Below are positions 1,273 to 21,651 of a DNA stretch of 34,128 nucleotides, piece by piece. Where the stretch lies: NCBI GenBank assembly GCA_002049895.1, contig MVCW01000001.1, positions 1-34,128 of the forward strand, in the 5' to 3' direction. The translations under genes and the position numbers were made by a program. The notes below the pieces were generated by a model. The model was not told where the DNA came from. It did not search any database and saw only the letters and a program-made list of their open reading frames with translations. The DNA is from Candidatus Omnitrophica bacterium 4484_171 (lineage in GTDB: Bacteria > Omnitrophota > Gorgyraeia > Duberdicusellales > 4484-171). Position 1 is the first letter of the stretch, and each line of letters starts with the position of its first letter.

Positions 1273-1311
1273 ATTAGTACGGTATTTTACCGGAGTATAC
1301 TAAAAGAATTT

Positions 1312-2402: not shown

Positions 2403-2405
2403 ATT

Positions 2406-4225: not shown

Positions 4226-4231
4226 ATATTT

Positions 4232-4400
4232 ACGCTTCGCGTCAACACAGATGGACACAGAAAGGATAAATCCCGTGAGCCTTGCGGACAACGGGGCAGG
4301 TAGATGACCGCAGATAATAAAATGTGACATTGGCAATTAGCATTTTAAAATAATAATATATCTGTGCAGTTCTGTTATAAATCTGCGCTAATCTGTGGTA
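4232..4400. repeat. Composite intergenic repeat: hairpin acgcttcgcgt, CRCAGAT words, a REP-like hairpin and inverted ATCTGYG words
   Basis: Forward words are CACAGAT (4246), CACAGAA (4256) and CGCAGAT (4309). Their reverse complements are ATCTGTG (4360), ATCTGCG (4381) and ATCTGTG (4391). Positions 4271-4300 (tcccgtgagccttgcggacaacggggcagg) are a third copy of the hairpin found twice at 2808-2887. Positions 4232-4262 align with 8892-8921 at about 24 of 31 nt. Confidence 0.8.
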
Positions 4401-4415
4401 TAGACAAGTGAAACC

Positions 4416-5213
4416 ATGTACTACGATTTTTACGGCATAAAACATTCCCCTTTTAATATTACCTCCAATCCTGATTTTTTCTTTGAAAGCACATCTCATC
4501 GGGAAGCTCTTGCTACCCTTTTGTATGGGATAAAAGAGAAAAAAGGCATAATTTTAATTACAGGCGAAGTCGGAACAGGCAAAACTACTCTTTGTAAGAC
4601 TTTACTTGGACGTCTGCCCCGCAGTGTTAAGACGTCTTTGATTCTTAATCCATATTTTAGCCAGGTCCAGCTGCTGCAGGCCATAGCTGATGATTTTGGG
4701 TTATCCCTGCCTGCAAAGAATAAGCTTAGTATCGTTAAGGAACTTAATTCTTTTCTTTTAAACCTTGGCAGAGATAATTCAACGGCGGCGGTTATTATTG
4801 ATGAAGCTCAGGATTTGACGCCGCGTCAGCTTGAGCAGGTGCGTCTTCTTTCCAATCTTGAGACTTCCTACAACAAACTCCTTCAGATTATTCTTGTGGG
4901 ACAGCCGGAGCTTAAGTATAAACTCAACCATCCCAATTTGCGCCAGATACGCCAGCGCATATTTGTTAAATGCGAGCTTTCTTCTTTAAAAAACGGTGAA
5001 GTTAAAGATTACATATATTTTCGGCTTAATAAAGCGGGAATCAAAGATGTGGATATACCGCAGGAAAGTTTCAGCCTTATATGTGACTTCTCGCGCGGCA
5101 TACCGCGCCTGATTAATATGCTCTGTGACAGGGCTTTGCTTGGTGGTTTTGTAAGGGGGAAGAAAGTATTGGATCAGGAGATATTCAAGGCCTGCATAGA
5201 GGAATTAAAATGA
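4416..5213 (+). CDS. ExeA/GspA-like AAA+ ATPase (secretin-assembly type), no peptidoglycan-binding domain
   Basis: Walker A is GEVGTGKT and Walker B is AAVIIDEAQ. The ExeA-type N-terminus is YYDFYGIKHSPF. At 265 aa it contains the ATPase module only. Confidence 0.8.
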   Translation: MYYDFYGIKHSPFNITSNPDFFFESTSHREALATLLYGIKEKKGIILITGEVGTGKTTLCKTLLGRLPRSVKTSLILNPYFSQVQLLQAIADDFGLSLPAKNKLSIVKELNSFLLNLGRDNSTAAVIIDEAQDLTPRQLEQVRLLSNLETSYNKLLQIILVGQPELKYKLNHPNLRQIRQRIFVKCELSSLKNGEVKDYIYFRLNKAGIKDVDIPQESFSLICDFSRGIPRLINMLCDRALLGGFVRGKKVLDQEIFKACIEELK

Positions 5214-5626
5214 GCATTATTTACGATGCCCTAAATAAGGCAGAGAAAGAGAATAATAACATACATAATAAGCAAAGCCCGAAACCGAACAGGCGCTTTA
5301 TAATTACAGGTATAGCGGTTTTAATTATTATCTTAATATTAAGCGTTATTTTTCTTAATAATAAAAAAGTCCATGTTTCACAGATAAAGAGTCGTCGGGA
5401 AACAGTTAGAAGGCATGTTAAGTTTGTAGAGAAAAAATACTCTCCGGGCAGTTTAGTTTTAGAGGGAATTATCTATGATAAGGGGGTACCTACAGCAGTA
5501 ATTAATGGTAAGGTTCTTGCTGAAGGCGGTAAAATATCAGGGTTTAGGGTGGATAAAATCAGTAAAGACAGTGTACAATTATTTGATTCTCAAGATGATA
5601 GAAAAATAACCCTTTCGTTTCAATAA
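5210..5626 (+). CDS. GspB/ExeB-like membrane protein
   Basis: The N-terminus MSIIYDALNKAEKE matches the GspB-type start. One TM helix (FIITGIAVLIIILILSVIFL) is followed by a C-terminal beta domain. The start overlaps the exeA-like stop (ATGA). Confidence 0.6.
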   Translation: MSIIYDALNKAEKENNNIHNKQSPKPNRRFIITGIAVLIIILILSVIFLNNKKVHVSQIKSRRETVRRHVKFVEKKYSPGSLVLEGIIYDKGVPTAVINGKVLAEGGKISGFRVDKISKDSVQLFDSQDDRKITLSFQ

Positions 5627-5662
5627 CCCAATTATTATTTTAAAAATTAATTAAAAAATTAT

Positions 5663-5689
5663 TGACTTTTTAACAGAAGATAGTAAAAT
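5663..5689 (+). promoter_or_regulatory. Putative sigma70-type promoter for the acyl-CoA ligase operon
   Basis: TTGACT (5663-5668) and TAAAAT (5684-5689) lie in an AT-rich 190-nt gap. The 15-nt spacer is short, so this call is weak. Confidence 0.3.
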
Positions 5690-5727: not shown

Positions 5728-5818
5728 AGTTTCGGGCCTATTGTAAGATGCCTGCTTTACAATAAAGCGGGCGAGAGTCTTTTATGCATATTCCAAGTGA
5801 GGCGGATGGTTTAAGGTT

Positions 5819-7324
5819 ATGGATATAAAGGCATTATTAAATAAACAGGCTTTAAATTTTGCCGATAAACCCGCGGTTGTTTTCAGAGGGCGAAGCATAA
5901 ATTTTCAACAGTTAAAAGACGCCTCTTTTGCCCTAGCTAATTACCTGCTCAAGGCTGGTGTACAAAAAGGAGACAGGGTAGCAGTTTTTTCTCCCAACAC
6001 GCCGGCGGCATTGGTAAGTATCGTTGGTATCTTTGGTGTCGCTGCTACTTTAGTGCCATTAGATTTTATGCTGTCTCAGGAAGAAATTATTGATTTTATC
6101 AATCATAGCAAGGCCAAAACCCTATTCGCGCATTTCCGCAGGGGCATAAATTTATCACAGGTCAAGAAACACTGTCCTTCGCTAAAGAAGGTTATTGTTT
6201 GGGGCAAGAAAACCGATTCATTTTCTTACTGGGATGATATGGTTGGAAAATATGAACATAACGAGCCTCCGTCCCGGATAGACAATAGTGATTTGGCCGT
6301 TATACTTTATACGTCAGGTTCCACCGGCCACCCCAAAGGGGTTATGCTTACTTTCGGCCATCTCGATAATCCTATAAAAGCTATAGAGTACTGCTTGGAA
6401 ATGTCAAAAGAGGATGTTTTATTATGTCCGGGCATTCCGTTTTCTCACATTGGCGGTCTGGATTATATTTTTCTGATGCTTCATTTTTCTTCAAGTCTGG
6501 TTCTTATGGAAAGATTCCAGCCATACAAATTTCTAAAGAATATTCAGGAATATAAGGCAACTTTATTCTGGATTGTACCTGCGATGTATGTGGCAATATT
6601 ATCTTTAAAGGATTCCGATAAGTTCGACCTATCTTCTTTAAGACACGCGGTTGTTTTTGGCGCGCCCTCATCGCCTGTTCTTCTAAAGAAATTCCATAAA
6701 ATGTGTCCCAACGCATATTTGCTTAACGGGTGGGGAATGACCGAGACATCTGCCCCCAATGCGGTTTTGCCCTTAGGCTCAAAGAGGATTGAAAGTGTAG
6801 GAAAATTTGTTCCCTGGATGAAGGCAGAAATTGTCGATGAAGATGGTAATAAATTAGGCCCTGGCCAGAAAGGAGAGTTACGGGTTAAAGGGGAAGGGGT
6901 AATGCTTGGATATTACAAGGAGCCGCAGTTAACAGCCGCGGTTTTGGCTAAAGATGGCTGGCTTAAGACAGGAGATATTGCTTATTATGATGAAGATAAC
7001 CTTTTTTATATTGTAGGAAGAATTAAAGATATGATTAAAGTTGGCGGAGAAATTGTTTTTTCTACAGAAGTTGAAGAAAAGATACATCGTCACTCTAAGG
7101 TTAAGGAGGCAGCGGTTGTGGGCGTTACTGATAAGTTAAGGGGAGAGGTGCCTAAGGCGTTTATTGTGGTTAAGGAAACAGAGAGCTTAACGGAAAAAGA
7201 ACTTAAAGAATTTCTAAAGAAGTCCCTCGCTCATTTTAAAATGCCTCATTACTTTGAGTTTGTTGATGAATTGCCTAAAACGAGAACGGGGAAAATTGAT
7301 AAAAAGAAATTAAAAGATTATTAA
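5819..7324 (+). CDS. Acyl-CoA synthetase / AMP-dependent ligase
   Basis: Adenylate-forming motifs are present: ILYTSGSTGHPKGV, GWGMTETS, TGDIAYYDEDNLFYIVGRIKDMIK and the C-terminal PKTRTGKIDKKKL. Confidence 0.88.
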   Translation: MDIKALLNKQALNFADKPAVVFRGRSINFQQLKDASFALANYLLKAGVQKGDRVAVFSPNTPAALVSIVGIFGVAATLVPLDFMLSQEEIIDFINHSKAKTLFAHFRRGINLSQVKKHCPSLKKVIVWGKKTDSFSYWDDMVGKYEHNEPPSRIDNSDLAVILYTSGSTGHPKGVMLTFGHLDNPIKAIEYCLEMSKEDVLLCPGIPFSHIGGLDYIFLMLHFSSSLVLMERFQPYKFLKNIQEYKATLFWIVPAMYVAILSLKDSDKFDLSSLRHAVVFGAPSSPVLLKKFHKMCPNAYLLNGWGMTETSAPNAVLPLGSKRIESVGKFVPWMKAEIVDEDGNKLGPGQKGELRVKGEGVMLGYYKEPQLTAAVLAKDGWLKTGDIAYYDEDNLFYIVGRIKDMIKVGGEIVFSTEVEEKIHRHSKVKEAAVVGVTDKLRGEVPKAFIVVKETESLTEKELKEFLKKSLAHFKMPHYFEFVDELPKTRTGKIDKKKLKDY

Positions 7325-7395
7325 CTAGCTCGTAGTTAATAGTGAGATATCGGAAGATGCAGGTCATCAAGAGCTAAAAATATGGAGGTGTAGCA

Positions 7396-13979: not shown

Positions 13980-16343
13980 ATGGGTAACAAAGGTTTATCG
14001 GGAAGCTGGCAATACCGGCTGGCGAGAAGAATCGTCCACTTAAGGATATATATCATTCTTATTTGCACCATAACCACTCTATTTTTTATAAACGTATTAA
14101 GAGATATAAAAGTTGAGACTCACCTTCAGGATTTTCTTCCCCAAAAACATCCTTTTATTAAGGTTCAGCACCGCCTGACCGATGTGTTCGGCGGGCTTAA
14201 TCAGGTATCCATCGCTCTTAAAGTAAAGAAAGGCGACATGTTTGATAAAAAGTTTATTGATAAGATTATATCATTGACTGAAGACTTATATCTTGTCAAC
14301 GGCGTGAATATAGCGCGTGTTAATTCCATTGCCTCACGCCACGTAAAGTATGTCACGGTAAACAGCGAAGGATTCTTTGTCCAAAGGCTCCTAAGGTATT
14401 CTCCCAAAGATAAAGAAGGCATGGAAAAATTAAGAAGAAGAATAAAGATGAATCCCAATATTTACGGGAAAATGGTATCGCGTGATTTTAAGTCAACTTT
14501 TATACAGGTCGATTTTGAATCAAGTGCAAAGACTTCATATATATTCTCTACACTTCAGAGCTTAAAGAAAAAATATGAAGATTCAAATACGAAAGTTTAT
14601 ATTGCCGGCCGGCCTATTCTGGAAGGATGGCTCAATTTTTATCTCCCGCATATGTTTAAAATATTGTGGATGAGTTTTTTGACCATTGTCGTTATTCTTT
14701 ACCTTACTTTCCGCTCAAAAAGGGGGGTTATACTTCCCCTTCTTGATTCTTCTATGGCTACAATCTGGGGAATGGGGGCGATGAAGCTCTTAGGCCTGAG
14801 GCTTGACCCTGCTACTATTTTAGTCCCCTTTATTGTATTATCTCTAGGTATAAGCCATTCCGTGCATACCCTTAAGCGTTACTATGAAGAGATGCGTTCG
14901 CCCGCGATGAAAAGCAAACACGCGATAGTCAACACAATGGCGCACCTTTTTCTTCCCGGCATTGCCTGCGTGCTTACTGACGGGTTCGGGTTTCTTTCTT
15001 TGACGATAGTACCGCTTTCTACGATAAAAAGCATGGCCCTGGCAAGCGGATTTGGGATATTCGCCAATTTCTTTACTTCGTTTATGTTTACTCCCTGTGT
15101 GCTTTCTTTTCTTCACAGGCCGAAAATCTTAGCGGTAAAACGGGAAGAACAGCACGCCTGGGTTGATAACATACTTTCTAAGATAAGTATTTTTTCTTTA
15201 AACAGAAAAGCCGGGACGATTCTTGTTGCCAGTTTCATTGCAGCAGCGGTTGTTTCTCTTTTTGGAATAAAACGGATTGTTATCGGCGACAACACACAAG
15301 GCTCAAGCTATCTTTATCCTTCAAGCCCCTACAATAAAGCAGAAGAATTTATAAATGATAATTTTGGAGGAACTAATTCTTACTATATTTTCGCAGAATC
15401 AAAAGATTCTATTCTTAAGGTAAGCAAGCTCAAGGCAATAGGCGCTTTCCAGAGATATTTATCAAAGGAAGTGCCGCAGGTTGGCTCATCTTTATCCGTT
15501 GTTAACGCGATAAAGGCGCTTAATATGTTTATGTTTGAGGGGAAAAGGGGATATTTTAAGATTCCGGACAAAGATGAAACAGTAGCCCAGTACTGGTTTC
15601 TATATACTGTAAGCGGTTTCCCTTCAGATTACGACCATCTAATAAGCCGGGACGAAACGATGTCTAATATTAAGTTTGATTTGCGTAACCATAAATCAAG
15701 CGCGGTTAACCTTGCTGTTAGAAAGACAAAAGAATTCTTTAAAAATAATAAATTCAAGAATATAAAGTTCTCATATGCCGGCGGAGACATAGGGATTTTT
15801 TATGCGATAAACGATATTATAAGAAGGACAATCATACCCAATGCTTTGTTTATTTCCCTGATAATTTTCTTATATGTAAGTTTTATTTACCGTTCTTTTA
15901 TTGCCGGTTTGTTTCTGCTGCTGCCTCTTATTTTCAGTAATTTGCTGATTTTCTCACTTTTTGGGTTCGCGGGTATCCCGATTAATACCGAGATGCTTCC
16001 CCTTGTATCTTTGAGCGAAGGCTTAGGTATAAATTATGGAATTTATATTCTTGCCCGCCTTTTTGATGAAATGCGCGCTAAGAAAAAAACCTACAGGAAT
16101 ATTCTCGCCCTTACTTTGGTTACAAGCGGCAAAGCCGTATTTTTTAGCGGCTCAATAGTATCTTTAGGGATATTTGTATGGGTTTTTTCTCCTATTCTTT
16201 TTCAGGCGCGGCTTGGAATCACGCTTTGTCTTTCTCTAATATTGAATATGGTTACTTCACTGGTGATGGTTCCGGTTTTGGTTTGGTGGATAAAACCGGA
16301 GTTTTTATTCGGGAAGCTGCGCCGCAGATTAAGACTAAGATAA
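13980..16343 (+). CDS. MMPL/RND-superfamily exporter (HpnN-like architecture)
   Basis: The 787-aa protein has two homologous halves, each a TM bundle following a soluble loop. MMPL-type blocks are LSLGISHSVHTLKRYYEE and SLSEGLGINYGIYILARLFDE. Confidence 0.85.
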   Translation: MGNKGLSGSWQYRLARRIVHLRIYIILICTITTLFFINVLRDIKVETHLQDFLPQKHPFIKVQHRLTDVFGGLNQVSIALKVKKGDMFDKKFIDKIISLTEDLYLVNGVNIARVNSIASRHVKYVTVNSEGFFVQRLLRYSPKDKEGMEKLRRRIKMNPNIYGKMVSRDFKSTFIQVDFESSAKTSYIFSTLQSLKKKYEDSNTKVYIAGRPILEGWLNFYLPHMFKILWMSFLTIVVILYLTFRSKRGVILPLLDSSMATIWGMGAMKLLGLRLDPATILVPFIVLSLGISHSVHTLKRYYEEMRSPAMKSKHAIVNTMAHLFLPGIACVLTDGFGFLSLTIVPLSTIKSMALASGFGIFANFFTSFMFTPCVLSFLHRPKILAVKREEQHAWVDNILSKISIFSLNRKAGTILVASFIAAAVVSLFGIKRIVIGDNTQGSSYLYPSSPYNKAEEFINDNFGGTNSYYIFAESKDSILKVSKLKAIGAFQRYLSKEVPQVGSSLSVVNAIKALNMFMFEGKRGYFKIPDKDETVAQYWFLYTVSGFPSDYDHLISRDETMSNIKFDLRNHKSSAVNLAVRKTKEFFKNNKFKNIKFSYAGGDIGIFYAINDIIRRTIIPNALFISLIIFLYVSFIYRSFIAGLFLLLPLIFSNLLIFSLFGFAGIPINTEMLPLVSLSEGLGINYGIYILARLFDEMRAKKKTYRNILALTLVTSGKAVFFSGSIVSLGIFVWVFSPILFQARLGITLCLSLILNMVTSLVMVPVLVWWIKPEFLFGKLRRRLRLR

Positions 16344-16367
16344 TATCGGACGCCGGACGTCCGATAT
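16341..16367. repeat. Stop-codon-fused palindromic hairpin, copy 2
   Basis: TAATATCGGACGccggaCGTCCGATAT begins with the MMPL stop codon. It has a perfect 10-bp stem. It differs from copy 1 only in the loop and at one stem base. Confidence 0.85.
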
Positions 16368-16386
16368 AAAAAGGAGGAGGTGTTGT

Positions 16387-17265
16387 ATGAGAAAGTTGTT
16401 ATTGTTTTTAGGGCTGATAGTATTTTCTTTAAGCGCGTCGGCTCAAGGGCTAGGGTATTATAAAGTGTATATCCCAAAAGAGGGGATGTCGGCTGATGAG
16501 ATTATGCGCATTATGTATAACAACAAATATTCGTTGTTTGCGCATGACTATCAGCAGACAGGAAAAGTATTTTATATTGATAAGTCAGGATTTACACGTA
16601 AAAGGATATGGAAGAGAATGCGAATTACCAAAGCCGGCGAAAACGGCATTTCTTACAAAGACATAGTAGCTTTTACTTACCCGACGGAGCTTAAAGGTTT
16701 GGCGGTTTTAACCTGGACATACGTAGACCCAAAAAGAGAGCAGGATGAGTGGCTCTGGCTTCCGTCTTTAAAGAAGGTAAGAAAAATATCTGCTTCTCAG
16801 AATGATGACGCATTTTTAGGCTCCGATTTTACAGTTGAAGAGGTATCTACCCGCCGTTTTGAGGATGAGACTTATAAGCTGTTGGGCGAGAAGGGGTTTG
16901 TAGGATATACTCTCCAGCAGACCGGCGAGGTTAAGTTTAAGGGAAAACCTTGCTTTGTTGTGGAGTGCCGTCCGGTTAGGAGTCACTGGTATTATTCAAA
17001 AAGGGTTGTCTGGGTTGACAAGGAAACCGGAGGAGAAATATTTGAAGAATATTATGATAAGACAGACAAGCTTTTTAAGACACTTTTCAGGGAATGGGCA
17101 TGGACAGCGGCAGGAGGTAAGAAATATGTTACCCAGCTTTCTTTGGAGTGTAAAGATTTAAGGACCGGACACCGCACTACAATTTTAATGAAGGATACTA
17201 AATATGACCAGGGAATCAGTGAGCAGAATTTTACGGTTAAGGCGCTTATGAGGTCAAGATGGTAA
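16387..17265 (+). CDS. LolA-like outer membrane lipoprotein-sorting family protein (periplasmic)
   Basis: A signal peptide is followed by the family core EWLWLPSLKKVRKISASQNDDAFLGSDFTVEEV, and later VVWVDKETG. A strong SD (AGGAGGAGG) is present. Confidence 0.8.
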   Translation: MRKLLLFLGLIVFSLSASAQGLGYYKVYIPKEGMSADEIMRIMYNNKYSLFAHDYQQTGKVFYIDKSGFTRKRIWKRMRITKAGENGISYKDIVAFTYPTELKGLAVLTWTYVDPKREQDEWLWLPSLKKVRKISASQNDDAFLGSDFTVEEVSTRRFEDETYKLLGEKGFVGYTLQQTGEVKFKGKPCFVVECRPVRSHWYYSKRVVWVDKETGGEIFEEYYDKTDKLFKTLFREWAWTAAGGKKYVTQLSLECKDLRTGHRTTILMKDTKYDQGISEQNFTVKALMRSRW

Positions 17266-17281
17266 TATATAATGGATAAAA

Positions 17282-17366
17282 CGCAGATGCCGCAGAATAT
17301 TCGCAGAGGATGCAGAAATAGAATCGCAAGAGATGCGGAAAACTCGCAGAGACTGTAGAGTATTTT
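17282..17366. repeat. Four tandem degenerate 20-23-nt units (consensus CGCAGAGnnTGCAGAAwa)
   Basis: Units start at 17282, 17302, 17325 and 17345. They read cgcagatgccgcagaatatt, cgcagaggatgcagaaatagaat, cgcaagagatgcggaaaact and cgcagagactgtagagtatttt. Inverted words (tcttctgcg, atccgcgg) follow at 17380-17400. Confidence 0.8.
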
Positions 17367-17433
17367 GCGCAATCGGCGGTATCTTCTGCGTAATCCGCGG
17401 AGAAATAAGAATTGAAAAAGGAGGTGTAAAGAG

Positions 17434-18864
17434 ATGAGGGGTAGAACTAAAATATTGTTTATATTATGCATAGCGGGTTTTATCACGGGGCTGTTTTTAG
17501 GAGGCGCCTTTGCCGTATCTATTGGTGATAATTTTGAGTATTCAGGATATTTAAAAACCGAAGTCTGGGTTAAAACAAACAACGATAATTCTCATCAGTT
17601 TCTATCTTCTTTTAAGAATACTTTTGATCTGGAAGCGCAGTATAAAATATCTAACGACTGGGTGTTTTTTGTGCATCCGCGCTATTTCTACGATTTTGCC
17701 TATAGCATAAGAGACGATATTTTTGATAAGAATCAGGTGAAAATGGGGACAACTCAGAGAACGGAGTGGCTCAGAGACTGTTATCTGGATTATACGTCGG
17801 ACGCTTTAGATGTAAGGCTTGGTAAACAGCAGGTGGTATGGGGACAGGCTGACGGCCTGCCGTTTTTAGACAGAGTTATGCCTTTTGATTTAACTAAGTA
17901 TTGGCTTCCGGATTTTGCCGATATCAGAATCCCTCTGTGGATGGTAAAGATAGAGTACTCACCTGTATTAAACTCAACTCTGCAATTTCTGTTTATTCCT
18001 GATTTTGAAGCATCGCGCTCCACTCCGGCAAATGGGACATTTGCTTTTAAGGCAGCCAATGATTTCGATGCTGTTAGGGGTATTATGGAGGCAAATGGAG
18101 GAAGTATGGAAACAAGCATATACCGTCCTTCTTCTAAATTAAAAAATTCACGCGTTGGTTTAAGATGGCGTTCTATGTTGGGAGACATAGACTATACTCT
18201 AAACTGGCTCTATGGATATTCAACAAGCGCGTATACATATTCAGATGGATCTACTATTACAGGAGGATTAATTCCTGCTTTAGGTATGCCTAAAGGAGAT
18301 TACTATTATTCCCGCCGGCACAAGCTTATGCAAATAATGGGTTTTTCTTTTAACAAATCCATTACAAACCCCGGGCCTTTGGAAGGGCTAACCATAAGAG
18401 GCGAGTTCGCGTATCTGCATAACGAACCCACATATTACGGGACTGCCGGCCACAGGAATTATACTGAAAAAAGCGACAAATACACTTATGTTTTGGGCTT
18501 TGATAAGTATTACTTTACCAATTGGCTCTTTTCCCTGCAGTTTGCCCAGTTTATCCACAACAGCCCTACCTTTAAAGGTAAGCATGTGCTTAATAGTTAT
18601 ACCTACGGGCTCATGGATAAGGTTGAGAGTTACCTGACTTTAAAGATAGCCACTGACTTTAAGCATGAACGCATAAAGCCTGAGGTATTGATAATTTACG
18701 GTGACGATAATGACGGAAGGATTTCTTTTAAGACAAGCTATGAACTGCGTGATAATGTATGGCTTGCTTTAGGGTATCATCATTTCTGGGGGCCGGCTTA
18801 CGGTTCAAACGGACAGTTCAGAAATAATGACCAGATATATGCTTCTGTTAAGTTTACTTTCTGA
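17434..18864 (+). CDS. DUF1302-family outer-membrane protein (predicted beta-barrel)
   Basis: A signal peptide is followed by the family motif LDVRLGKQQVVWGQADGLPFLDRVMPFD. The sequence has alternating beta-strand character and ends in an aromatic residue (VKFTF). SD AAGGAGGTG is present. Confidence 0.7.
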   Translation: MRGRTKILFILCIAGFITGLFLGGAFAVSIGDNFEYSGYLKTEVWVKTNNDNSHQFLSSFKNTFDLEAQYKISNDWVFFVHPRYFYDFAYSIRDDIFDKNQVKMGTTQRTEWLRDCYLDYTSDALDVRLGKQQVVWGQADGLPFLDRVMPFDLTKYWLPDFADIRIPLWMVKIEYSPVLNSTLQFLFIPDFEASRSTPANGTFAFKAANDFDAVRGIMEANGGSMETSIYRPSSKLKNSRVGLRWRSMLGDIDYTLNWLYGYSTSAYTYSDGSTITGGLIPALGMPKGDYYYSRRHKLMQIMGFSFNKSITNPGPLEGLTIRGEFAYLHNEPTYYGTAGHRNYTEKSDKYTYVLGFDKYYFTNWLFSLQFAQFIHNSPTFKGKHVLNSYTYGLMDKVESYLTLKIATDFKHERIKPEVLIIYGDDNDGRISFKTSYELRDNVWLALGYHHFWGPAYGSNGQFRNNDQIYASVKFTF

Positions 18865-18893: not shown

Positions 18894-18918
18894 ATAGGGG
18901 GGGCAGCCCCCCTATTTT
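18894..18918 (+). terminator. Rho-independent terminator after the DUF1302 gene
   Basis: ATAGGGGGG-gcag-CCCCCCTAT is followed by TTTT, 30 nt after the stop codon. Confidence 0.8.
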
Positions 18919-19027
18919 ACTAGAACGCAGGGTTTACTTGTATAGTGTTTAGGTATTATTGATAGAGCTTTTTATAGATTAAATTAATATAATTGCGGAT
19001 GGTTTTTAGGTATAATTGTCTTAGAGT

Positions 19028-20068
19028 ATGAAGGATATAAAAAACTATACACTAAATGAGCTGGGTAATATCTTAGAAAGAGAGAGGTATCCTGCGTTTT
19101 GCGCCAAACAAATCTTCAGCTGGGTATATAAGAGAAACATTGATGATTTCTCTAAAATGTCTGATTTATCAAAAGCGGCGCGCCAGTATTTAAAAAGTAA
19201 TTTTTATATCTCTTCCCTAAAGACATTAGAAAGAAAGGTATCTGTTGATGGAACAGAGAAGTTTCTCTTTGCATTAGACGATAAAAATACTATAGAAACC
19301 GTTATTATACCGAAAGGCAACAGGAACACGCTTTGTGTGTCTACACAGGTCGGCTGCCGCTACGGTTGTAAGTTCTGCGTAAGTGGGCTCTTTGGTTTTA
19401 AGAGGAATTTAAAAGTGTCTGAGATTATAAATCAGTTTATTAAAATAAACAGCATTATAATTCCTAAGGCCATTACGAATGTGGTATTTATGGGCATAGG
19501 AGAACCTTTGGATAATTTTGATAACGTGATAAAAAGTATATCGATTATGACATCGCCTTTCGGTATCCATTTTGGCAGGCGCAGAATAACTATATCTACC
19601 TGTGGTATAACGCCTAAGGTAAAAGAACTATTAAACATGGATTTTGGGGTTAAACTCTCAATATCTTTGCACTCGGCTGATAATAGAAAACGCTCACTGC
19701 TTATGCCGGTGAATAAATTATATCCTTTGGCCGGACTTATAGACCAGGCAAAGCGGTATGCTAAGAAATATAGGTTCCCCGTCACTTTCGAGTATATCCT
19801 GATTAAGGATATTAATTCCAAAAGAGAAGACGCTTTAAATCTAAGCCGCATGCTAAGAGGATTGAGATACAAAATAAATATTATTCCTTATAATCCAGCC
19901 CCTGCTTTTAAATGGCAAGTTCCTTCTTTTTATGATATAAATAGTTTTACGAAAATATTAAAGAGAAAAGGTGTTTTCTTTACTTTAAGAAGACCGCGCG
20001 GACAGGATATAGAGGCCGCCTGCGGTCAGCTGCGTATAGCCATGATGAAGAATGAAAAAAGAGTTTGA
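19028..20068 (+). CDS. rlmN: 23S rRNA/tRNA adenine-C2 methyltransferase RlmN (radical SAM)
   Basis: Cluster motif is GCRYGCKFCVSG. Also present are MGIGEPLDN and the C-terminal catalytic Cys context DIEAACGQL. The N-terminal segment is FCAKQIFSWVY. Confidence 0.9.
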   Translation: MKDIKNYTLNELGNILERERYPAFCAKQIFSWVYKRNIDDFSKMSDLSKAARQYLKSNFYISSLKTLERKVSVDGTEKFLFALDDKNTIETVIIPKGNRNTLCVSTQVGCRYGCKFCVSGLFGFKRNLKVSEIINQFIKINSIIIPKAITNVVFMGIGEPLDNFDNVIKSISIMTSPFGIHFGRRRITISTCGITPKVKELLNMDFGVKLSISLHSADNRKRSLLMPVNKLYPLAGLIDQAKRYAKKYRFPVTFEYILIKDINSKREDALNLSRMLRGLRYKINIIPYNPAPAFKWQVPSFYDINSFTKILKRKGVFFTLRRPRGQDIEAACGQLRIAMMKNEKRV

Positions 20069-20726
20069 CAGCACAACGCTTCGTTTCTTATTTCTAATTG
20101 CATTATTAGCGATTATACTTATTATCGGCAGTACTTCCTCGGTGAACCCGGAGAGAATAAAGTCTTTTCTAAAGCACATGCCTCTTTTGTATTCTTCCCT
20201 GGCGTTTGTTTTTCTCTACGTTATCGGAACATTTTTTATATGGTACTTAAAAGACCCTCTGAAGATAGTGGGGGCGGTAGTTTTTGGTGCCTATATAAGT
20301 ACCTTTCTGATTTATATATCGGAAGTAATAAATGCGTTTATATTTTTCAATCTCAGTGCTATATTGGGGAAGGAATTCATAGAAAAGAAAGTACGTGGTA
20401 AATTCCGCCGGTTTTATGAGAAACTTGAGGGTGTTAATCTGGGATGGATATTTCTTCTTCGTGCCGTCCCGCTTATTCCTTACAGAATACTGGATATGAG
20501 CTTTGGCCTTAGCAAGGTAAAGCTTGGGAAATATATCGTTGCTGTTCTTCTGGCTTCACTGCCGAGGATATTCTGGATTCAGTTCATACTCTCAGCTGTG
20601 GGAGGATTCTCTATGGATAAACTGATGCGGTATTTTTCGGAGAATACAGTTATTTTAGTGTTAAGTTTTGTTTATTTTATTGCCGCCTTAGCTGCCGCAT
20701 TCAGGATAAAAAGGAAATTTATGTAG
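20052..20726 (+). CDS. TVP38/TMEM64 (DedA-related, SNARE-associated) membrane protein
   Basis: A multi-TM protein with the family core FLLRAVPLIPYRILDMSFGLSKV. It overlaps the rlmN stop by 17 nt. Confidence 0.65.
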   Translation: MKKEFDSTTLRFLFLIALLAIILIIGSTSSVNPERIKSFLKHMPLLYSSLAFVFLYVIGTFFIWYLKDPLKIVGAVVFGAYISTFLIYISEVINAFIFFNLSAILGKEFIEKKVRGKFRRFYEKLEGVNLGWIFLLRAVPLIPYRILDMSFGLSKVKLGKYIVAVLLASLPRIFWIQFILSAVGGFSMDKLMRYFSENTVILVLSFVYFIAALAAAFRIKRKFM

Positions 20727-20748
20727 TTTTTGCCGGTACGCAGCAGCT

Positions 20749-21645
20749 ATGAGAGCAGGTATAAGAATCAGCCGTCAGGAGAAAATACAAAAGGCAAGGG
20801 ACGTTCTAATAGAAAGATTAGCAGCTTGTGATTTATGCCCCCGCGCCTGCGGCGTAAACCGTATGAATAATGAAGAGGGCTTTTGCAAAACGGGCCGTCT
20901 GGCAAAAGTAAATAGTGCGTTTTTGCACTTTGGAGAAGAGAGAGAACTTACAGGAGGCGGCGGTTCGGGGACAATATTCTTTTCTAATTGCAACTTAAAC
21001 TGTGTTTATTGCCAGAATTATGAAATTTCACAGTTGGGGTCTGGAGAAATTGTGTCCAGCGGGAAGTTAGCGGATATGATGATTAGACTGCAGCAGGATG
21101 GTGCTGAGAACATTAACTTTGTTACACCGACGCATGTTATTGCTCAAATTGTAGAGGCTTTATGTATAGCTTATAAAAGAGGCCTTTGCATTCCCCTTGT
21201 TTATAATTGCGGCGGTTACGAAAGTTCCGGCACCTTAAAACTGATAGATGGTATTTTCGATATTTATATGCCCGACATAAAGTATTCCGATAATAGGTTA
21301 GCCCGTACTTTATCAGGTGTTTATGATTACTGGGAGGTATCAAGGAGTGCCGTATTAGAAATGCACAGACAGGCTGGCGATTTAATCATAGATAATGGCG
21401 CGGCAAAAAAAGGCTTGCTTATTAGGCATCTTGTCCTTCCCGGATTATATAAAGGCGCTTTTAAGATTATTGATTTTATAAGAAATGATATTTCGGTTGA
21501 TACATATGTAAATATAATGGATCAGTACAGGCCTTATTACAGGGCATATGAATTTAATCAGCTGCAGCGGGTTCTTGCAGAAAACGAGTATAGGGAAGTT
21601 ATAAATTACGCCCGCGACAAAGGGCTCTATAGGGGGCTATCTTAA
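20749..21645 (+). CDS. PflX-type radical SAM protein (pyruvate formate-lyase activase-like)
   Basis: An N-terminal Cys cluster (CDLCPRACGVNR...GFCK) is followed by the radical SAM motif CNLNCVYCQN. Confidence 0.75.
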   Translation: MRAGIRISRQEKIQKARDVLIERLAACDLCPRACGVNRMNNEEGFCKTGRLAKVNSAFLHFGEERELTGGGGSGTIFFSNCNLNCVYCQNYEISQLGSGEIVSSGKLADMMIRLQQDGAENINFVTPTHVIAQIVEALCIAYKRGLCIPLVYNCGGYESSGTLKLIDGIFDIYMPDIKYSDNRLARTLSGVYDYWEVSRSAVLEMHRQAGDLIIDNGAAKKGLLIRHLVLPGLYKGAFKIIDFIRNDISVDTYVNIMDQYRPYYRAYEFNQLQRVLAENEYREVINYARDKGLYRGLS

Positions 21646-21651
21646 TTTAAA

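What the first reader, a model, noticed from the sequence alone, without database searches (positions are those of the whole stretch)
5819..18864. Single-strand 13-kb locus linking acyl activation, a B12-radical SAM enzyme and an inner-to-outer-membrane export set (MMPL + LolA-like + DUF1302)
Ten genes run on one strand and end at one clear terminator (18894-18918). They are an acyl-CoA ligase, a class B (cobalamin) radical SAM enzyme and a four-gene sugar-phosphate salvage set. An aldehyde dehydrogenase, an MMPL exporter, a periplasmic LolA-like carrier and a DUF1302 outer-membrane protein follow. MMPL proteins are known lipid exporters (mycolates, hopanoids). LolA-like and DUF1302 partners next to such exporters look like a periplasm-spanning route for a hydrophobic cargo. 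Class B radical SAM enzymes often methylate or cross-link unactivated carbons in lipids and cofactors. An SCP2 lipid-binding domain also sits in the middle of the locus. Taken together, this suggests an undescribed pathway that activates an acyl chain, modifies it by radical chemistry and delivers the product to the outer membrane. The function is inferred, not read from the sequence.
Basis: partly seen in the sequence, partly recalled or inferred. Interest (0 to 1): 0.75.

Follow-up and report, generated by a model that had tools for sequence, protein, structure and literature searches.

The report
Radical SAM, deoxynucleoside-processing and lipid-transport cluster
This is a real gene cluster, not found described in the papers searched, that recurs in Omnitrophota and a few other anaerobic bacteria: it joins a B12-type radical SAM enzyme to enzymes that break down the deoxy-nucleoside such enzymes leave behind, and in some lineages to a fatty-acid-type activating enzyme and a transporter for greasy molecules, but what it makes is still unknown.

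Summary
Ten same-strand genes (5819-18864) belong to the stated families and end at a clear terminator. The set is not a one-off: all ten families recur together in six other de-duplicated loci, and at least nine in eleven, in at least five gene orders.

The locus is a mosaic of separable modules, not one fixed operon. These are an MTA-phosphorylase-like PNP, an MtnA-type isomerase, a degenerate isomerase paralogue and a class II aldolase fused to SCP2, followed by a hydrolytic aldehyde dehydrogenase. Together they form a phosphorylase-type 5'-deoxyadenosine "DHAP shunt". The ligase and the RND/LolA-like/DUF1302 trio (AmeABD-like) are accessory; the trio is in 21 of 148 locus groups.

Most likely (about 0.42), the radical SAM enzyme modifies a hydrophobic substrate and its 5'-deoxyadenosine by-product is recycled next door. 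A more novel reading (about 0.27) is that the adenosyl group is attached to a lipid and trimmed to a two-carbon extension. The conserved SCP2 fusion and the non-acetate-type ligase are hard to explain otherwise.

The radical SAM protein falls in no named family, and its BchE annotation is an over-call.

The parts
5662..5689 (+). Promoter-like site upstream of the ligase gene (TTGACT-16-TAAAAT, 10/12)
   Evidence: Consensus scan only. A hairpin at 5749-5773 lies between this site and the ATG. No Rfam match.
5819..7324 (+). Acyl-CoA/acyl-AMP ligase (ANL superfamily, 4CL/luciferase/FadD-like), accessory module
   Evidence: PF00501 + PF13193. Best NCBIfam hit is the long-chain-fatty-acid-CoA ligase subfamily PRK06187, 435 bits, below its 476 cut-off. 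Nearest solved structures are luciferases, 4-coumarate-CoA ligases and fatty-acyl-CoA synthetases. The motif GWGMTET has Gly where acetyl-CoA synthetase has its gatekeeper Trp (sequence, own knowledge of Acs). A relative lies near the rSAM in 12 of 35 loci with full flanks.
7396..8865 (+). Class-B-fold (B12-binding domain) radical SAM enzyme of an unnamed, BchE-like family
   Evidence: PF02310 + PF04055. TIGR02026 BchE scores 217 bits against a 481 cut-off, and HpnJ 135 against 578. C209/C213/C216 are invariant. 1254 relatives at E<=1e-20 among the candidates scored. AF2 model pLDDT 84.7. Fold neighbours are AprD4, OxsB, MgmA, TsrM, CysS and TokK at 14-18% identity.
8975..9715 (+). Hexameric-PNP-type nucleoside phosphorylase, probably a 5'-deoxyadenosine/MTA-type phosphorylase
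   Evidence: PF01048. Best solved relative is Sulfolobus 5'-methylthioadenosine phosphorylase 1JDS. The phosphate-site residues G32/R36/R97/S100 and D212 are present. HpnG model scores only 37.6 bits against 187.
9708..10631 (+). MtnA-type (5-deoxy/5-methylthio)ribose-1-phosphate isomerase
   Evidence: PF01008. Aligns with T. maritima MtnA 1T9K over residues 16-295, and the catalytic TxCN Cys and GADR Asp motifs are kept. It is the gene most often found with the rSAM (19 of 35 loci with full flanks).
10606..11079 (+). Small degenerate paralogue of the isomerase's C-terminal subdomain (non-catalytic, possible partner subunit)
   Evidence: 23% identical to residues 145-268 of the neighbouring isomerase (E=2e-7) and lacks the Cys/Asp motifs. 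Conserved in the same position in many loci.
11076..12092 (+). Class II (metal-dependent) aldolase fused to a C-terminal SCP2 lipid-binding-type domain
   Evidence: E74/H93/H95/H154 are invariant in 36 sequences. AF2 pLDDT 89.9, two domains with a disordered linker at 190-212. The N-domain matches FucA and the 5-deoxyribulose-1-P aldolase DrdA 6BTD/6BTG. The C-domain hits PF02036 in 14 of 14 members, and the weak top PDB profile hits are SCP2 and alkylsulfatase C-terminal domains. The family is small (212 clusters) and mostly from Omnitrophota.
12093..12459 (.). 367-nt gene-free gap, possible internal transcript boundary
   Evidence: No ORF, no Rfam match, not conserved. Weak hairpin at 12182-12194 and a promoter-like site at 12336-12363.
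12460..13893 (+). Hydrolytic NAD(P)+ aldehyde dehydrogenase (aldehyde to carboxylic acid)
   Evidence: PF00171, 423 bits. Catalytic Cys277 in GQMCIG, general-base Glu243 in ELGG, and Asn147 (sequence, own knowledge of ALDH motifs). Co-located with the rSAM in 13 of 35 loci with full flanks.
13980..16343 (+). HAE3/MMPL-type RND inner-membrane transporter (AmeD-like, 787 aa)
   Evidence: PF03176, plus weak sterol-sensing domain hits. TIGR00921 HAE3 scores 202 bits, below its 352 cut-off. The only solved relative is HpnN 6WU0. AmeD is also 787 aa (PMC6394551).
16387..17265 (+). Periplasmic LolA-like/DUF1329 protein (AmeB-like) with a signal peptide
   Evidence: PF17131 140 bits and PF07044. The N-terminal signal-like sequence is visible.
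17434..18864 (+). DUF1302 outer-membrane beta-barrel-type protein (AmeA-like)
   Evidence: PF06980 91 bits. Signal-like N-terminus.
18897..18923 (+). Intrinsic terminator closing the cluster
   Evidence: GGGGGGG-CAG-CCCCCCT followed by a T-rich tail.

Best explanation
The stretch is a mosaic of three modules that recur together but can be separated.

**Module 1 (7396-13893).** This holds a BchE-like, class-B-fold radical SAM enzyme together with a complete phosphorylase-type "DHAP shunt". The steps I propose are:
1. Each radical SAM turnover leaves a 5'-deoxynucleoside.
2. The MTA-phosphorylase-like PNP removes adenine with phosphate.
3. The MtnA-type isomerase, perhaps paired with its degenerate small paralogue, makes the 1-phospho-ketose.
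4. The class II aldolase splits it into DHAP and an aldehyde.
5. The aldehyde dehydrogenase oxidises the aldehyde to an acid.

**Module 2 (5819-7324).** A FadD/4CL-type ligase that activates a carboxylic acid larger than acetate.

**Module 3 (13980-18864).** An AmeABD-like set (HAE3 RND, LolA-like, DUF1302) that moves a hydrophobic compound from the inner membrane outward.

**Most likely working.** The radical SAM enzyme abstracts hydrogen from an unactivated carbon of a hydrophobic substrate (acyl or polyketide type). It consumes SAM stoichiometrically. The inhibitory by-product, 5'-deoxyadenosine, is recycled in cis to DHAP plus acetate. The modified lipid, or its precursor, is handled by module 3.

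**Shown:** family identities, intact catalytic residues, and recurrent co-location. **Inferred:** substrates, cobalamin use, direction of transport, and coupling between the modules.
For: - **Families and active sites:**
- **Published precedent:** phosphorylase/isomerase/aldolase clusters are the 5'-deoxyadenosine salvage route to DHAP + acetaldehyde (PMC6079011).
- **Co-location anchored on the rSAM:** of 35 rSAM loci with at least 8 kb on both sides, 19 have the isomerase, 18 the aldolase, 15 the PNP and 13 the ALDH.
- **Co-location anchored on the aldolase:** about 13 of 18 aldolase-anchored loci with full flanks have this rSAM.
- **Co-loss at the same site:** relatives without the rSAM also lack the isomerase, the small paralogue, the SCP2 domain and the ALDH.
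- **Generic pairing:** the same cassette sits beside a different B12-rSAM in L152, and it stands alone among housekeeping genes in L109/L128. That is what a generic by-product salvage unit would do.
- **Enzyme class:** all characterised class B radical SAM enzymes work by H-abstraction and release 5'-deoxyadenosine (own knowledge).
- **Link to the trio:** the trio was found only where the core is present (5 of 5 against 0 of 17). In some lineages the core is nested between the transport genes.
Against: - Plain salvage of 5'-deoxyadenosine gives acetaldehyde. That does not explain an SCP2 lipid-binding-type domain fused to the aldolase in essentially the whole family. It also does not explain why the SCP2 domain is lost together with the rSAM.
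- The ligase is not acetate-type, so it is not the last salvage step.
- A dedicated by-product line of five or six genes, co-inherited with one biosynthetic enzyme, is unusually lavish.
- The trio and ligase persist without the rSAM in L141/L163/L166, so coupling between modules 1 and 3 is not obligatory.
- No substrate can be named.
Confidence: 0.42

Rival explanations
1. **Adenosylate-and-trim (two-carbon extension).**
1. The radical SAM enzyme adds the 5'-deoxyadenosyl radical to a hydrophobic substrate R. This is what HpnH does to diploptene and MqnE does to an enol ether.
2. The PNP removes adenine.
3. The isomerase and the SCP2-tethered aldolase cut away C1'-C3' as DHAP, leaving R-CH2-CHO.
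4. The ALDH makes R-CH2-COOH.
5. The FadD-type ligase makes the acyl-CoA.

The RND/LolA-like/DUF1302 trio moves the hydrophobic substrate or product across the envelope. The net result is SAM used as a C2 donor, either to functionalise or extend a lipid, or as an oxygen-free way to activate a hydrocarbon.
For: - It uses every gene in a single thermodynamically downhill order: reversible PNP, isomerase and aldolase steps are pulled by a hydrolytic ALDH (Cys277/Glu243) and an ATP-driven ligase.
- It explains the conserved SCP2 fusion on the aldolase and the co-loss of SCP2, isomerase and ALDH with the rSAM.
- It explains why the ligase resembles fatty-acyl/4CL enzymes and has Gly at the Acs gatekeeper position.
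- It fits the links to hydrophobe transporters and to KAS/ACP modules.
- HpnH followed by HpnG (a PNP homologue) is a published precedent (PMC13459092). The futalosine pathway (MqnE/MqnB/MqnD) retains C4'/C5' in the same way (own knowledge).
- The top fold neighbours include non-methylating enzymes with this fold (AprD4, OxsB), so the fold does not force methyl transfer.
Against: - No enzyme with a B12-binding domain is known to adenosylate. HpnH and MqnE are not class B.
- The PNP resembles generic MTA/purine phosphorylases, not HpnG (37.6 bits).
- ALDH is missing within 10 kb in the L027/L064/L081 lineage although the ligase is present. The ligase is missing in L006.
- The cassette occurs without this rSAM (L109, L128) and beside a different rSAM (L152).
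- No candidate R is identified.
Confidence: 0.27
2. **Independent neighbours.** The rSAM-plus-shunt unit, the ligase and the RND/LolA-like/DUF1302 cassette have unrelated jobs. For example, the trio could be a general solvent/hydrophobe efflux or outer-membrane lipid system, as proposed for Pseudomonas and Castellaniella. They would sit together only because of shared ancestry at a variable chromosomal site in Omnitrophota.
For: - The modules are separable at the very same site between the Pil/secretin genes and RlmN. L141/L163/L166 keep the ligase, an aldolase and the trio without the rSAM. L109/L117 keep only the isomerase, the small paralogue and aldolase-SCP2.
- The trio accompanies only 21 of 148 locus groups.
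- There is a 367-nt gap with promoter-like and hairpin signals just upstream of the ALDH-trio half.
Against: - The trio recurs with the core in lineages only about 45-50% identical and in at least five gene orders, including the core nested between MMPL and LolA-like/DUF1302 (L004, L120, L127). That is hard to get by inheritance alone.
- In rSAM-anchored loci the trio was never seen without the core (0 of 17).
- 20 of 21 trio-bearing groups also carry the aldolase.
Confidence: 0.13
3. **Starter-unit supply from a nucleoside.** The radical SAM enzyme acts on the nucleoside or sugar phosphate itself, as OxsB acts on deoxyadenosine phosphates, for example by alkylating the 5' position. The shunt, ALDH and ligase then convert the product into an unusual short acyl-CoA. 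In most Omnitrophota that acyl-CoA would prime the neighbouring KAS-KAS-ACP (KS/CLF-like) module.
For: - In about 45 loci this rSAM family lies in one same-strand block with ApbA-KAS-KAS-ACP-cyclase-SRPBCC-MFS-SDR-Amidohydro_2, often flanked by the shunt, ALDH and ligase.
- OxsB, a class B enzyme acting on a nucleotide, is among the top fold neighbours.
- The ligase is the kind that would load an acid onto CoA or ACP.
Against: - The window itself has no KAS/ACP module within 34 kb.
- This reading does not explain the SCP2 domain or the hydrophobe transporter.
- There is no direct evidence for nucleoside alkylation.
- The fold similarity to OxsB is only 16% identity.
Confidence: 0.08
4. The radical SAM protein is BchE, the anaerobic Mg-protoporphyrin IX monomethyl ester cyclase, as several database annotations of its relatives state.
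For: BchE is the best-scoring named model (TIGR02026, 217 bits). JGI names several relatives this way.
Against: - The score is less than half the equivalog cut-off of 481.
- There are no bacteriochlorophyll genes in the window or in any of the loci examined.
- The hosts are Omnitrophota and other non-phototrophic anaerobes.
- The conserved partners are nucleoside-processing and lipid-type genes.
Confidence: 0.01

Closest known systems
Phosphorylase-type 5'-deoxyadenosine/MTA 'DHAP shunt' (MtnP-MtnA-Ald2; DrdK/DrdI/DrdA 5-deoxyribose salvage)
   Same: The enzyme families and the order of reactions are the same: nucleoside phosphorylase, MtnA-type isomerase, class II aldolase giving DHAP plus an aldehyde. 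Catalytic residues are intact. The aldolase domain matches DrdA, and the PNP matches an MTA phosphorylase (PMC6079011).
   Different: - The aldolase carries a conserved SCP2 domain.
- An extra degenerate isomerase paralogue is present.
- A hydrolytic ALDH and often a FadD-type ligase are co-inherited.
- The whole set is tied to one particular B12-type radical SAM family.
- In some lineages it is tied to hydrophobe transporters or KAS/ACP genes.
- All NCBIfam scores are below the equivalog cut-offs.
AmeABCD of Castellaniella defragrans (HAE3 RND + DUF1329/LolA-like + DUF1302 + COG4447 protein) and the Pseudomonas DUF1302/DUF1329/BNR/RND set
   Same: It combines an HAE3-type RND protein of the same length (787 aa), a LolA-like/DUF1329 periplasmic protein and a DUF1302 outer-membrane protein. 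It is embedded among genes for the metabolism of a hydrophobic compound (PMC6394551; bioRxiv 10.1101/2020.07.04.188060).
   Different: - There is no AmeC/BNR-type fourth component in the window.
- Gene order is reversed (RND first).
- The HAE3 model score is below its cut-off.
- I did not compare sequences with AmeA-D directly.
- The cargo is unknown.
Aryl-polyene (APE) gene clusters: ApeH acyl-ACP synthetase, KS/ACP genes, ApeL (LolA-like), ApeM (RND), ApeN (LolB-like)
   Same: An adenylating enzyme activates an acid, a lipid-like product is built, and a dedicated RND plus LolA-like set is proposed to take it to the outer membrane (PMC8253772).
   Different: - APE clusters have no radical SAM enzyme and no nucleoside-processing genes.
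- They use a LolB-like DUF3261 protein, not DUF1302.
- The window has no KS/ACP genes.
- This is an analogy only. No homology was tested.
Hopanoid side-chain pathway HpnH-HpnG(-HpnJ)-HpnN, and the futalosine pathway MqnE-MqnB-MqnD
   Same: A radical SAM enzyme, a PNP_UDP_1-family enzyme that removes adenine, and (for hopanoids) an HAE3 RND exporter occur in one pathway. Both pathways keep carbons of the adenosyl ribose in the product (PMC13459092; own knowledge for Mqn).
   Different: - The rSAM here is BchE/HpnJ-like (class B fold), not HpnH- or MqnE-like.
- The PNP is not HpnG-like (37.6 against 187 bits).
- The RND is only distantly related to HpnN (E=1.5e-7).
- The isomerase, aldolase and ALDH steps have no counterpart in those pathways.
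BchE and other class B (cobalamin-dependent) radical SAM enzymes
   Same: An N-terminal Rossmann/B12-binding domain plus a radical SAM barrel with one CxxxCxxC cluster. BchE is the best-scoring named family.
   Different: - All named families score far below their cut-offs.
- Identity to solved members is 14-18%.
- The genomic context is unrelated to chlorophyll, hopanoids, phosphonates or RiPPs.
'Ladderane-like' fatty-acid-type BGCs called by antiSMASH in Omnitrophota, Desulfobacterota and others
   Same: In most relatives this rSAM family sits with a KAS-KAS-ACP block, which is probably what such calls pick up (PMC9902471).
   Different: - The window lacks that block.
- The rSAM scores only 78 bits on the ladderane-associated model TIGR04072, against a cut-off of 360.
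- I did not run antiSMASH.

Membership tests
Class B (cobalamin-dependent) radical SAM | CxxxCxxC motif binding the radical SAM [4Fe-4S] cluster | tested here: met
   C209-x3-C213-x2-C216 is invariant in 20 sequences. PF04055 scores 63.8 bits.
Class B (cobalamin-dependent) radical SAM | N-terminal B12-binding (Rossmann) domain | tested here: met
   PF02310 scores 32.8 bits against a 32.1 cut-off. The AF2 model's best fold matches are OxsB, TsrM, TokK, CysS and MgmA.
Class B (cobalamin-dependent) radical SAM | Cobalamin actually bound and used | not testable with these tools
   The top fold neighbour, AprD4, has the same architecture but, from my own knowledge, does not use cobalamin (fold match). 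No diagnostic ligand motif exists for this class.
BchE (Mg-protoporphyrin IX monomethyl ester anaerobic cyclase) | Score at or above the TIGR02026 equivalog cut-off | tested here: not met
   217.1 bits against 481.35.
BchE (Mg-protoporphyrin IX monomethyl ester anaerobic cyclase) | Bacteriochlorophyll biosynthesis context or phototrophic host | tested here: not met
   No bch genes in the window or in the related loci annotated. Hosts are Omnitrophota, Desulfobacterota and Deferribacterota.
Lipid-modifying class B rSAMs (HpnJ, HpnR, ladderane-associated TIGR04072) | Score at or above the family cut-off | tested here: not met
   HpnJ 135.5 against 577.6, HpnR 86.2 against 650, TIGR04072 78.3 against 360. 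HpnP is not among the hits.
5'-deoxyadenosine/MTA DHAP shunt (phosphorylase type) | 5'-deoxynucleoside phosphorylase with a phosphate-binding site | tested here: met
   PNP_UDP_1 family. The best solved relative is Sulfolobus MTA phosphorylase 1JDS. G32/R36/R97/S100/D212 are present. Substrate preference was not tested.
5'-deoxyadenosine/MTA DHAP shunt (phosphorylase type) | MtnA-type aldose-ketose isomerase with catalytic Cys and Asp | tested here: met
   Full-length alignment to MtnA 1T9K, with TxCN and GADR conserved. NCBIfam scores are below the equivalog cut-offs (157 against 271).
5'-deoxyadenosine/MTA DHAP shunt (phosphorylase type) | Class II aldolase with the metal triad and catalytic Glu, DrdA/Ald2-like | tested here: met
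   E74/H93/H95/H154 are invariant. Fold match to DrdA 6BTD/6BTG and FucA, TM about 0.8 on the target.
5'-deoxyadenosine/MTA DHAP shunt (phosphorylase type) | Activity on 5'-deoxyadenosine, 5-deoxyribose-1-P and 5-deoxyribulose-1-P | not testable with these tools
   Needs enzyme assays.
AmeABCD-type HAE3 cassette | HAE3-family RND inner-membrane protein | tested here: inconclusive
   TIGR00921 scores 202.5 bits against a 351.9 cut-off. PF03176 MMPL scores 101.5 bits, above its cut-off. The length of 787 aa equals AmeD's (PMC6394551). There was no direct comparison with AmeD.
AmeABCD-type HAE3 cassette | DUF1329/LolA-like periplasmic protein and DUF1302 outer-membrane protein encoded alongside | tested here: met
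   PF17131 140 bits plus PF07044 63.6 bits, and PF06980 91.3 bits.
AmeABCD-type HAE3 cassette | Second periplasmic protein (AmeC, COG4447/BNR-like) | tested here: not met
   No such ORF lies between 13980 and the terminator, or elsewhere in the annotated window.
SCP2 sterol/lipid-carrier domain | Match to PF02036 and an alpha/beta SCP2 fold | tested here: met
   14 of 14 C-terminal domains hit PF02036 (best E=1.4e-8). The best PDB profile hits, all weak (E 0.13-0.9), are SCP2 1C44/2C0L/1QND and alkylsulfatase C-terminal domains. The secondary-structure pattern fits. Lipid binding itself was not tested.
HpnH/HpnG-type adenosylation pathway | HpnH-like (non-B12) adenosylating rSAM and an HpnG-family phosphorylase | tested here: not met
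   The rSAM has class B architecture and HpnH is not among its hits. HpnG TIGR03468 scores 37.6 against 187.1. The resemblance is one of logic only.

The most novel reading that the evidence does not exclude
The cluster encodes an undescribed "adenosylate-and-trim" route. A B12-domain radical SAM enzyme attaches the 5'-deoxyadenosyl group of SAM to a hydrophobic molecule. DHAP-shunt-type enzymes then pare the adduct down so that only C5'-C4' remain, as a -CH2-COOH extension. The key step is an aldolase that holds the lipid tail with its SCP2 domain. The extended acid is then activated as a CoA thioester. This would be SAM used as a two-carbon donor for lipids. It could also be an oxygen-independent way to functionalise hydrocarbons or alkenes, with an AmeABD-like RND system handling the hydrophobic cargo.
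Probability: 0.27. Interest if true: 0.9.

Novelty: new variant of a known kind. Interest (0 to 1): 0.62.

Why it matters
Radical SAM enzymes are poisoned by their own by-product, and it is still unclear how cells couple high-flux radical SAM chemistry to by-product removal. This cluster is a clean natural example. One radical SAM family is co-inherited, and co-lost, with a full nucleoside-to-acid processing line. It occurs in a phylum (Omnitrophota) with no pure cultures and essentially unknown lipid chemistry.

The SCP2-fused aldolase is a concrete handle on the question. Either it reveals an unexpected lipid link in deoxynucleoside salvage, or it marks a new way of building or activating lipids from SAM.

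The work also corrects a widespread mis-annotation of these proteins as "BchE". It gives a genomic context to the poorly understood HAE3/DUF1329/DUF1302 transport cassettes and to the "ladderane-like" clusters reported in anoxic metagenomes.

Tried and rejected
- **BchE identity:** rejected. The score is far below the cut-off and there is no phototrophy context.
- **Reverse (synthetic) direction:** I considered ligase, then acyl-CoA reductase, then aldolase condensation, building a polyhydroxy-alkyl nucleoside. I rejected it because the ALDH keeps both the catalytic Cys and the ELGG general-base Glu typical of hydrolytic, non-acylating enzymes.
- **Ligase as the last salvage step (acetate to acetyl-CoA):** disfavoured. 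It has Gly at the Acs Trp gate, and its nearest structures are 4CL, luciferase and FadD.
- **Riboswitch or other known RNA:** none in the 5' leader or the 367-nt internal gap. One chance-level snoRNA hit was ignored.
- **Hidden gene or pseudogene in the gap:** none. The gap is not conserved.
- **Fold search with the full aldolase-SCP2 model:** it returned only aldolase-domain hits. I therefore tested the SCP2 domain by profile instead.
- **Domain interface in the model:** I could not inspect the SCP2-aldolase interface because model coordinates are not exposed.
- **Literature:** searches for DUF1302/DUF1329, radical SAM + 5-deoxyribose + aldolase, Omnitrophota + radical SAM, and HpnH/MqnE adenosylation found no description of this cluster.
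- **Failed call:** one alignment call failed on wrong coordinates and was redone.

Full report

Yes. The window has ten consecutive + strand ORFs from 5819 to 18864.
- AMP-binding ligase.
- B12-binding + Radical_SAM.
- PNP_UDP_1.
- IF-2B/MtnA-like.
- A 157-aa ORF with weak IF-2B similarity.
- Aldolase_II + SCP2.
- Aldehyde dehydrogenase.
- MMPL/HAE3 RND.
- LolA_like/DUF1329.
- DUF1302.

A strong G/C hairpin plus T-run at 18897-18913 closes the set.

Intergenic distances are short or negative: 71, 109, -8, -26, -4, 86, 43 and 168 nt. The exception is a 367-nt gap between the aldolase and the ALDH genes. That gap has no ORF, no Rfam match and no conservation. It contains a weak hairpin and a promoter-like site. 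A single transcript is therefore plausible but not shown.

The flanks are unrelated housekeeping genes. A PilMNO/secretin/AAA_22 set lies upstream. RlmN, a DedA/VTT protein, another radical SAM gene and RsmB lie downstream.

**2. Whose DNA is it?**

The closest relatives of the radical SAM protein and of the whole locus are metagenome-assembled genomes of Candidatus Omnitrophota, at 80-85% identity (L001, L012, L013). Some are labelled "uncultured Planctomycetia".

**3.

I anchored one scan on the radical SAM protein (79 reference-genome loci). I anchored a second on the aldolase-SCP2 protein (80 metagenome loci). I then searched all loci with the ten window proteins.

After removing near-identical loci, 148 groups remain:

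| Content | Groups |
|---|---|
| rSAM + isomerase + aldolase | 59 |
| rSAM + PNP + isomerase + aldolase + ALDH | 38 |
| Transport trio (at least 2 of 3 genes) | 21 |
| of those, also with the aldolase | 20 |
| of those, also with the rSAM | 17 |
| All ten families | 6 |
| At least nine families | 11 |

Among the 35 rSAM loci with at least 8 kb on both sides, the counts of each neighbour were:

| Neighbour | Loci of 35 |
|---|---|
| Isomerase | 19 |
| Aldolase | 18 |
| PNP | 15 |
| Small paralogue | 14 |
| ALDH | 13 |
| Ligase | 12 |
| Each trio gene | 5 |

The trio appeared only where the core was present (5 of 5 against 0 of 17).

Gene order differs between lineages:
- Window type: ligase-rSAM-PNP-isomerase-small-aldolase-ALDH-RND-LolA-DUF1302.
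- L004/L120/L127: RND-rSAM-PNP-isomerase-small-aldolase-ALDH-LolA-DUF1302-ligase. Here the core is nested inside the transport genes.
- L064/L081/L103: ligase-PNP-isomerase-rSAM-small-aldolase-RND-LolA-DUF1302.

Recurrence at 45-50% protein identity with shuffled order argues for functional linkage rather than inheritance alone.

**4. The locus is modular**

Three observations show that the parts can be separated.

(a) The rSAM family has clades that lack the nucleoside-processing genes entirely, for example the 495-aa Velamenicoccus type.

(b) At the window's own chromosomal site, between the Pil/AAA_22 genes and RlmN/RsmB, some relatives (L141, L163, L166) carry only four elements:
- The ligase.
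- A PNP-like gene with a degraded phosphate site.
- An aldolase with an intact active site but no SCP2 domain.
- The trio.

Other relatives (L109, L117) carry only the isomerase, the small paralogue and aldolase-SCP2.

(c) In L152 the same PNP-isomerase-aldolase-ALDH-ligase cassette lies beside a different B12-type radical SAM gene (29% identity), a SPASM radical SAM gene and glycosyltransferases.

Comparing the syntenic loci, the rSAM, the isomerase, the small paralogue, the SCP2 domain and the ALDH are present or absent together.

**5. What the "sugar-phosphate set" is**

- *PNP.* Its best solved relative is the hexameric 5'-methylthioadenosine phosphorylase of Sulfolobus, and it keeps the phosphate-binding residues.
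- *Isomerase.* It aligns along the whole of T. maritima MtnA with the catalytic Cys and Asp motifs.
- *Small ORF.* It is a degenerate copy of the isomerase's C-terminal subdomain without those motifs.
- *Aldolase domain.* It has the invariant Glu plus three-His metal site. In a confident AF2 model (pLDDT 89.9) it superposes on FucA and on DrdA, the 5-deoxyribulose-1-phosphate aldolase.

This is the phosphorylase-type 5'-deoxyadenosine/MTA "DHAP shunt". Published work assigns it to disposal of the 5'-deoxyadenosine made by radical SAM enzymes (PMC6079011).

The downstream ALDH has the Cys/Glu/Asn set of hydrolytic aldehyde dehydrogenases, so flux runs from nucleoside to aldehyde to acid.

The set is therefore not an incidental insertion between "lipid" genes. 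It is the radical SAM enzyme's closest functional partner.

**6. What does not fit simple salvage**

- The aldolase is fused to an SCP2 domain in essentially the whole family. The family is about 330 aa, has 212 clusters and is mostly from Omnitrophota. All 14 C-terminal domains tested hit PF02036. The best PDB profile hits, all weak (E 0.13-0.9), are sterol carrier protein 2 and the SCP2-like tail of alkylsulfatases. Acetaldehyde-forming cleavage needs no lipid-binding domain.
- The ligase is of the 4-coumarate/luciferase/fatty-acyl type. It has Gly where acetyl-CoA synthetase has its gatekeeper Trp.
- The set associates repeatedly with hydrophobe transporters (this window) or with a KAS-KAS-ACP-cyclase-SRPBCC-MFS-SDR-Amidohydro_2 block (about 45 loci).

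**7. The radical SAM enzyme**

It has one CxxxCxxC cluster and an N-terminal B12-binding-type Rossmann domain.

BchE is the best-scoring named family, but at 217 bits against a cut-off of 481. HpnJ, HpnR, the ladderane-associated model and the P- and C-methyltransferases all score lower and far below their cut-offs.

The AF2 model (pLDDT 84.7) resembles AprD4, OxsB, MgmA, TsrM, CysS and TokK at only 14-18% identity. The class B fold is confirmed, but neither methyl transfer nor cobalamin use can be assumed. From my own knowledge, AprD4 does not use cobalamin and OxsB rearranges a nucleotide.

The family is large (1254 relatives at E<=1e-20) and has no name. The "Mg-protoporphyrin cyclase" labels on its members are over-annotations.

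**8. The transport trio**

An HAE3-type RND protein of 787 aa, a signal-peptide-bearing LolA-like/DUF1329 protein and a DUF1302 protein make up the published AmeABCD cassette of Castellaniella defragrans, minus AmeC. That cassette confers monoterpene tolerance and sits inside a catabolic island (PMC6394551).

In Pseudomonas the DUF1302/DUF1329/BNR/RND genes are co-fit on Tween 20. They have been proposed to export a cell-envelope component (bioRxiv 10.1101/2020.07.04.188060).

The only solved relative of the RND protein is the hopanoid exporter HpnN.

Outward transport of a hydrophobic cargo is thus a reasonable inference, but nothing here identifies the cargo.

**9. How it most likely works**

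My best-supported model (about 0.42) has three parts:
- The radical SAM enzyme carries out H-abstraction chemistry on a hydrophobic substrate.
- Its 5'-deoxyadenosine by-product is phosphorolysed, isomerised, cleaved and oxidised by the co-inherited line.
- The ligase activates the acid substrate, and the trio handles the lipid.

The main rival (about 0.27) is more novel. The enzyme transfers the adenosyl group to the hydrophobic substrate, as HpnH and MqnE do. The PNP removes adenine, as HpnG and MqnB do. The isomerase and the SCP2-tethered aldolase then remove C1'-C3' as DHAP. The ALDH and ligase convert the remaining R-CH2-CHO to R-CH2-CO-CoA. This uses every gene in one downhill sequence. 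It also explains the SCP2 fusion, the ligase type and the co-loss pattern.

Against the rival:
- No B12-domain enzyme is known to adenosylate.
- The ALDH or the ligase is missing in some lineages.
- The cassette can occur without this rSAM or beside another rSAM.

Lesser rivals are independent neighbouring modules (about 0.13), starter-unit supply to the KAS module (about 0.08) and true BchE (about 0.01). The estimates sum to 0.91, which leaves about 0.09 for readings I have not named.

**10. Novelty and verdict**

I found no description of this cluster in the papers searched. Each module belongs to a known kind.

New are the conserved combination, the SCP2-fused aldolase, the degenerate isomerase paralogue, and the tie to a particular unnamed radical SAM family. 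I therefore rate it a new variant of a known kind, with a substantial chance of something categorically new.

The genes do belong together in several lineages and a hydrophobic cargo is likely. However, the centre of gravity is the rSAM-deoxynucleoside link rather than the export set, and the pathway as written remains conjecture.

Noticed in passing
L003, L007, L014-L020, L024-L026, L030, L046, L079 and about 35 more loci; absent from the window: A second conserved same-strand module accompanies this rSAM family in most Omnitrophota and some Desulfobacterota. It runs: small 91-aa ORF, ApbA-type reductase, KAS, KAS, ACP, PF04199 cyclase, SRPBCC/Polyketide_cyc2, MFS, SDR, (CBM11), Amidohydro_2. 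It looks like a type II PKS/FAS-like cluster, and is probably what antiSMASH reports as 'ladderane' BGCs in these phyla.
   Followed up: partly
L141 4932-12000, L163 and L166 7802-15196: A reduced variant sits at the same chromosomal site as the window's cluster. It has the ligase, a PNP-like gene that has lost its phosphate-binding Gly/Arg, an aldolase with an intact active site but no SCP2 domain, and the RND/LolA-like/DUF1302 trio. It has no rSAM, isomerase or ALDH. Its function is unexplained.
   Followed up: partly
L109 7838-11940; L117; L128 8166-12516: The isomerase, the small paralogue and aldolase-SCP2 (with or without ALDH) occur without the rSAM or PNP within 10 kb. Their neighbours are a class IV aminotransferase and RsmB in L109, and a DsbD-like protein and an SBF (bile-acid/Na+ symporter family) protein in L128.
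   Followed up: partly
L152 787-6015: The same PNP-isomerase-aldolase-ALDH-ligase cassette lies beside a different B12-binding radical SAM gene (452 aa, 29% identical), a SPASM-domain radical SAM gene and two family-2 glycosyltransferases.
   Followed up: partly
window 10606-11079: A GTG-start 157-aa ORF overlaps its neighbours by 26 and 4 nt. It is a degenerate, apparently non-catalytic duplicate of the C-terminal subdomain of the adjacent MtnA-like isomerase and is conserved across lineages. It may form a heteromeric isomerase.
   Followed up: partly
window 5749-5773: An 11-bp hairpin followed by a T-rich tail lies between the promoter-like site (5662-5689) and the ligase start codon. It could be a leader or attenuator structure. 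It has no Rfam match.
   Followed up: partly
window 19028-22596: Immediately downstream are RlmN (a radical SAM rRNA methylase), a DedA/VTT membrane protein, a further small radical SAM/Fer4_12 protein (20749-21645) and RsmB. That makes three radical SAM genes within 14 kb. This block is syntenic in L095, L141 and L166.
   Followed up: partly
window 23955-26390 (-) and 26412-29060 (-): An 811-aa protein has a weak N-terminal DUF748/YhdP-like match, below Pfam cut-offs (an AsmA-family lipid-bridge type). Next to it is an 882-aa GH94-like glycoside phosphorylase. The first may be another envelope-lipid transport gene in the same window.
   Followed up: no
window 550-5626: A PilM/PilN/PilO/T2SSB-like/secretin/AAA_22 set plus a 138-aa ORF forms a type IV pilus or type II secretion-like block. 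It is conserved upstream of the cluster in L001, L013, L090, L141, L163 and L166, and is inverted in L056, L109 and L117.
   Followed up: partly
L004 (LR991655.1), L078, and many 'uncultured Planctomycetia' records: Contigs carrying this bacterial-type cluster, including a DUF1302 outer-membrane protein, are labelled Methanoperedenaceae or Methanosarcinales archaeon, or Planctomycetia. These are probably mis-binned or mislabelled Omnitrophota-like or other bacterial DNA.
   Followed up: no
P0004, P0017, P0019, P0020, P0026, P0046, P0058, P0066: Public annotations name members of this rSAM family 'anaerobic magnesium-protoporphyrin IX monomethyl ester cyclase' or 'YgiQ'. Scores and genomic context indicate these are over-annotations.
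   Followed up: yes
window 12143-12175 and L105 10993-11025: A 33-nt stretch of the otherwise unconserved aldolase-ALDH gap matches (88%) the equivalent intergenic position in L105. It may be a short shared regulatory or repeat element.
   Followed up: no
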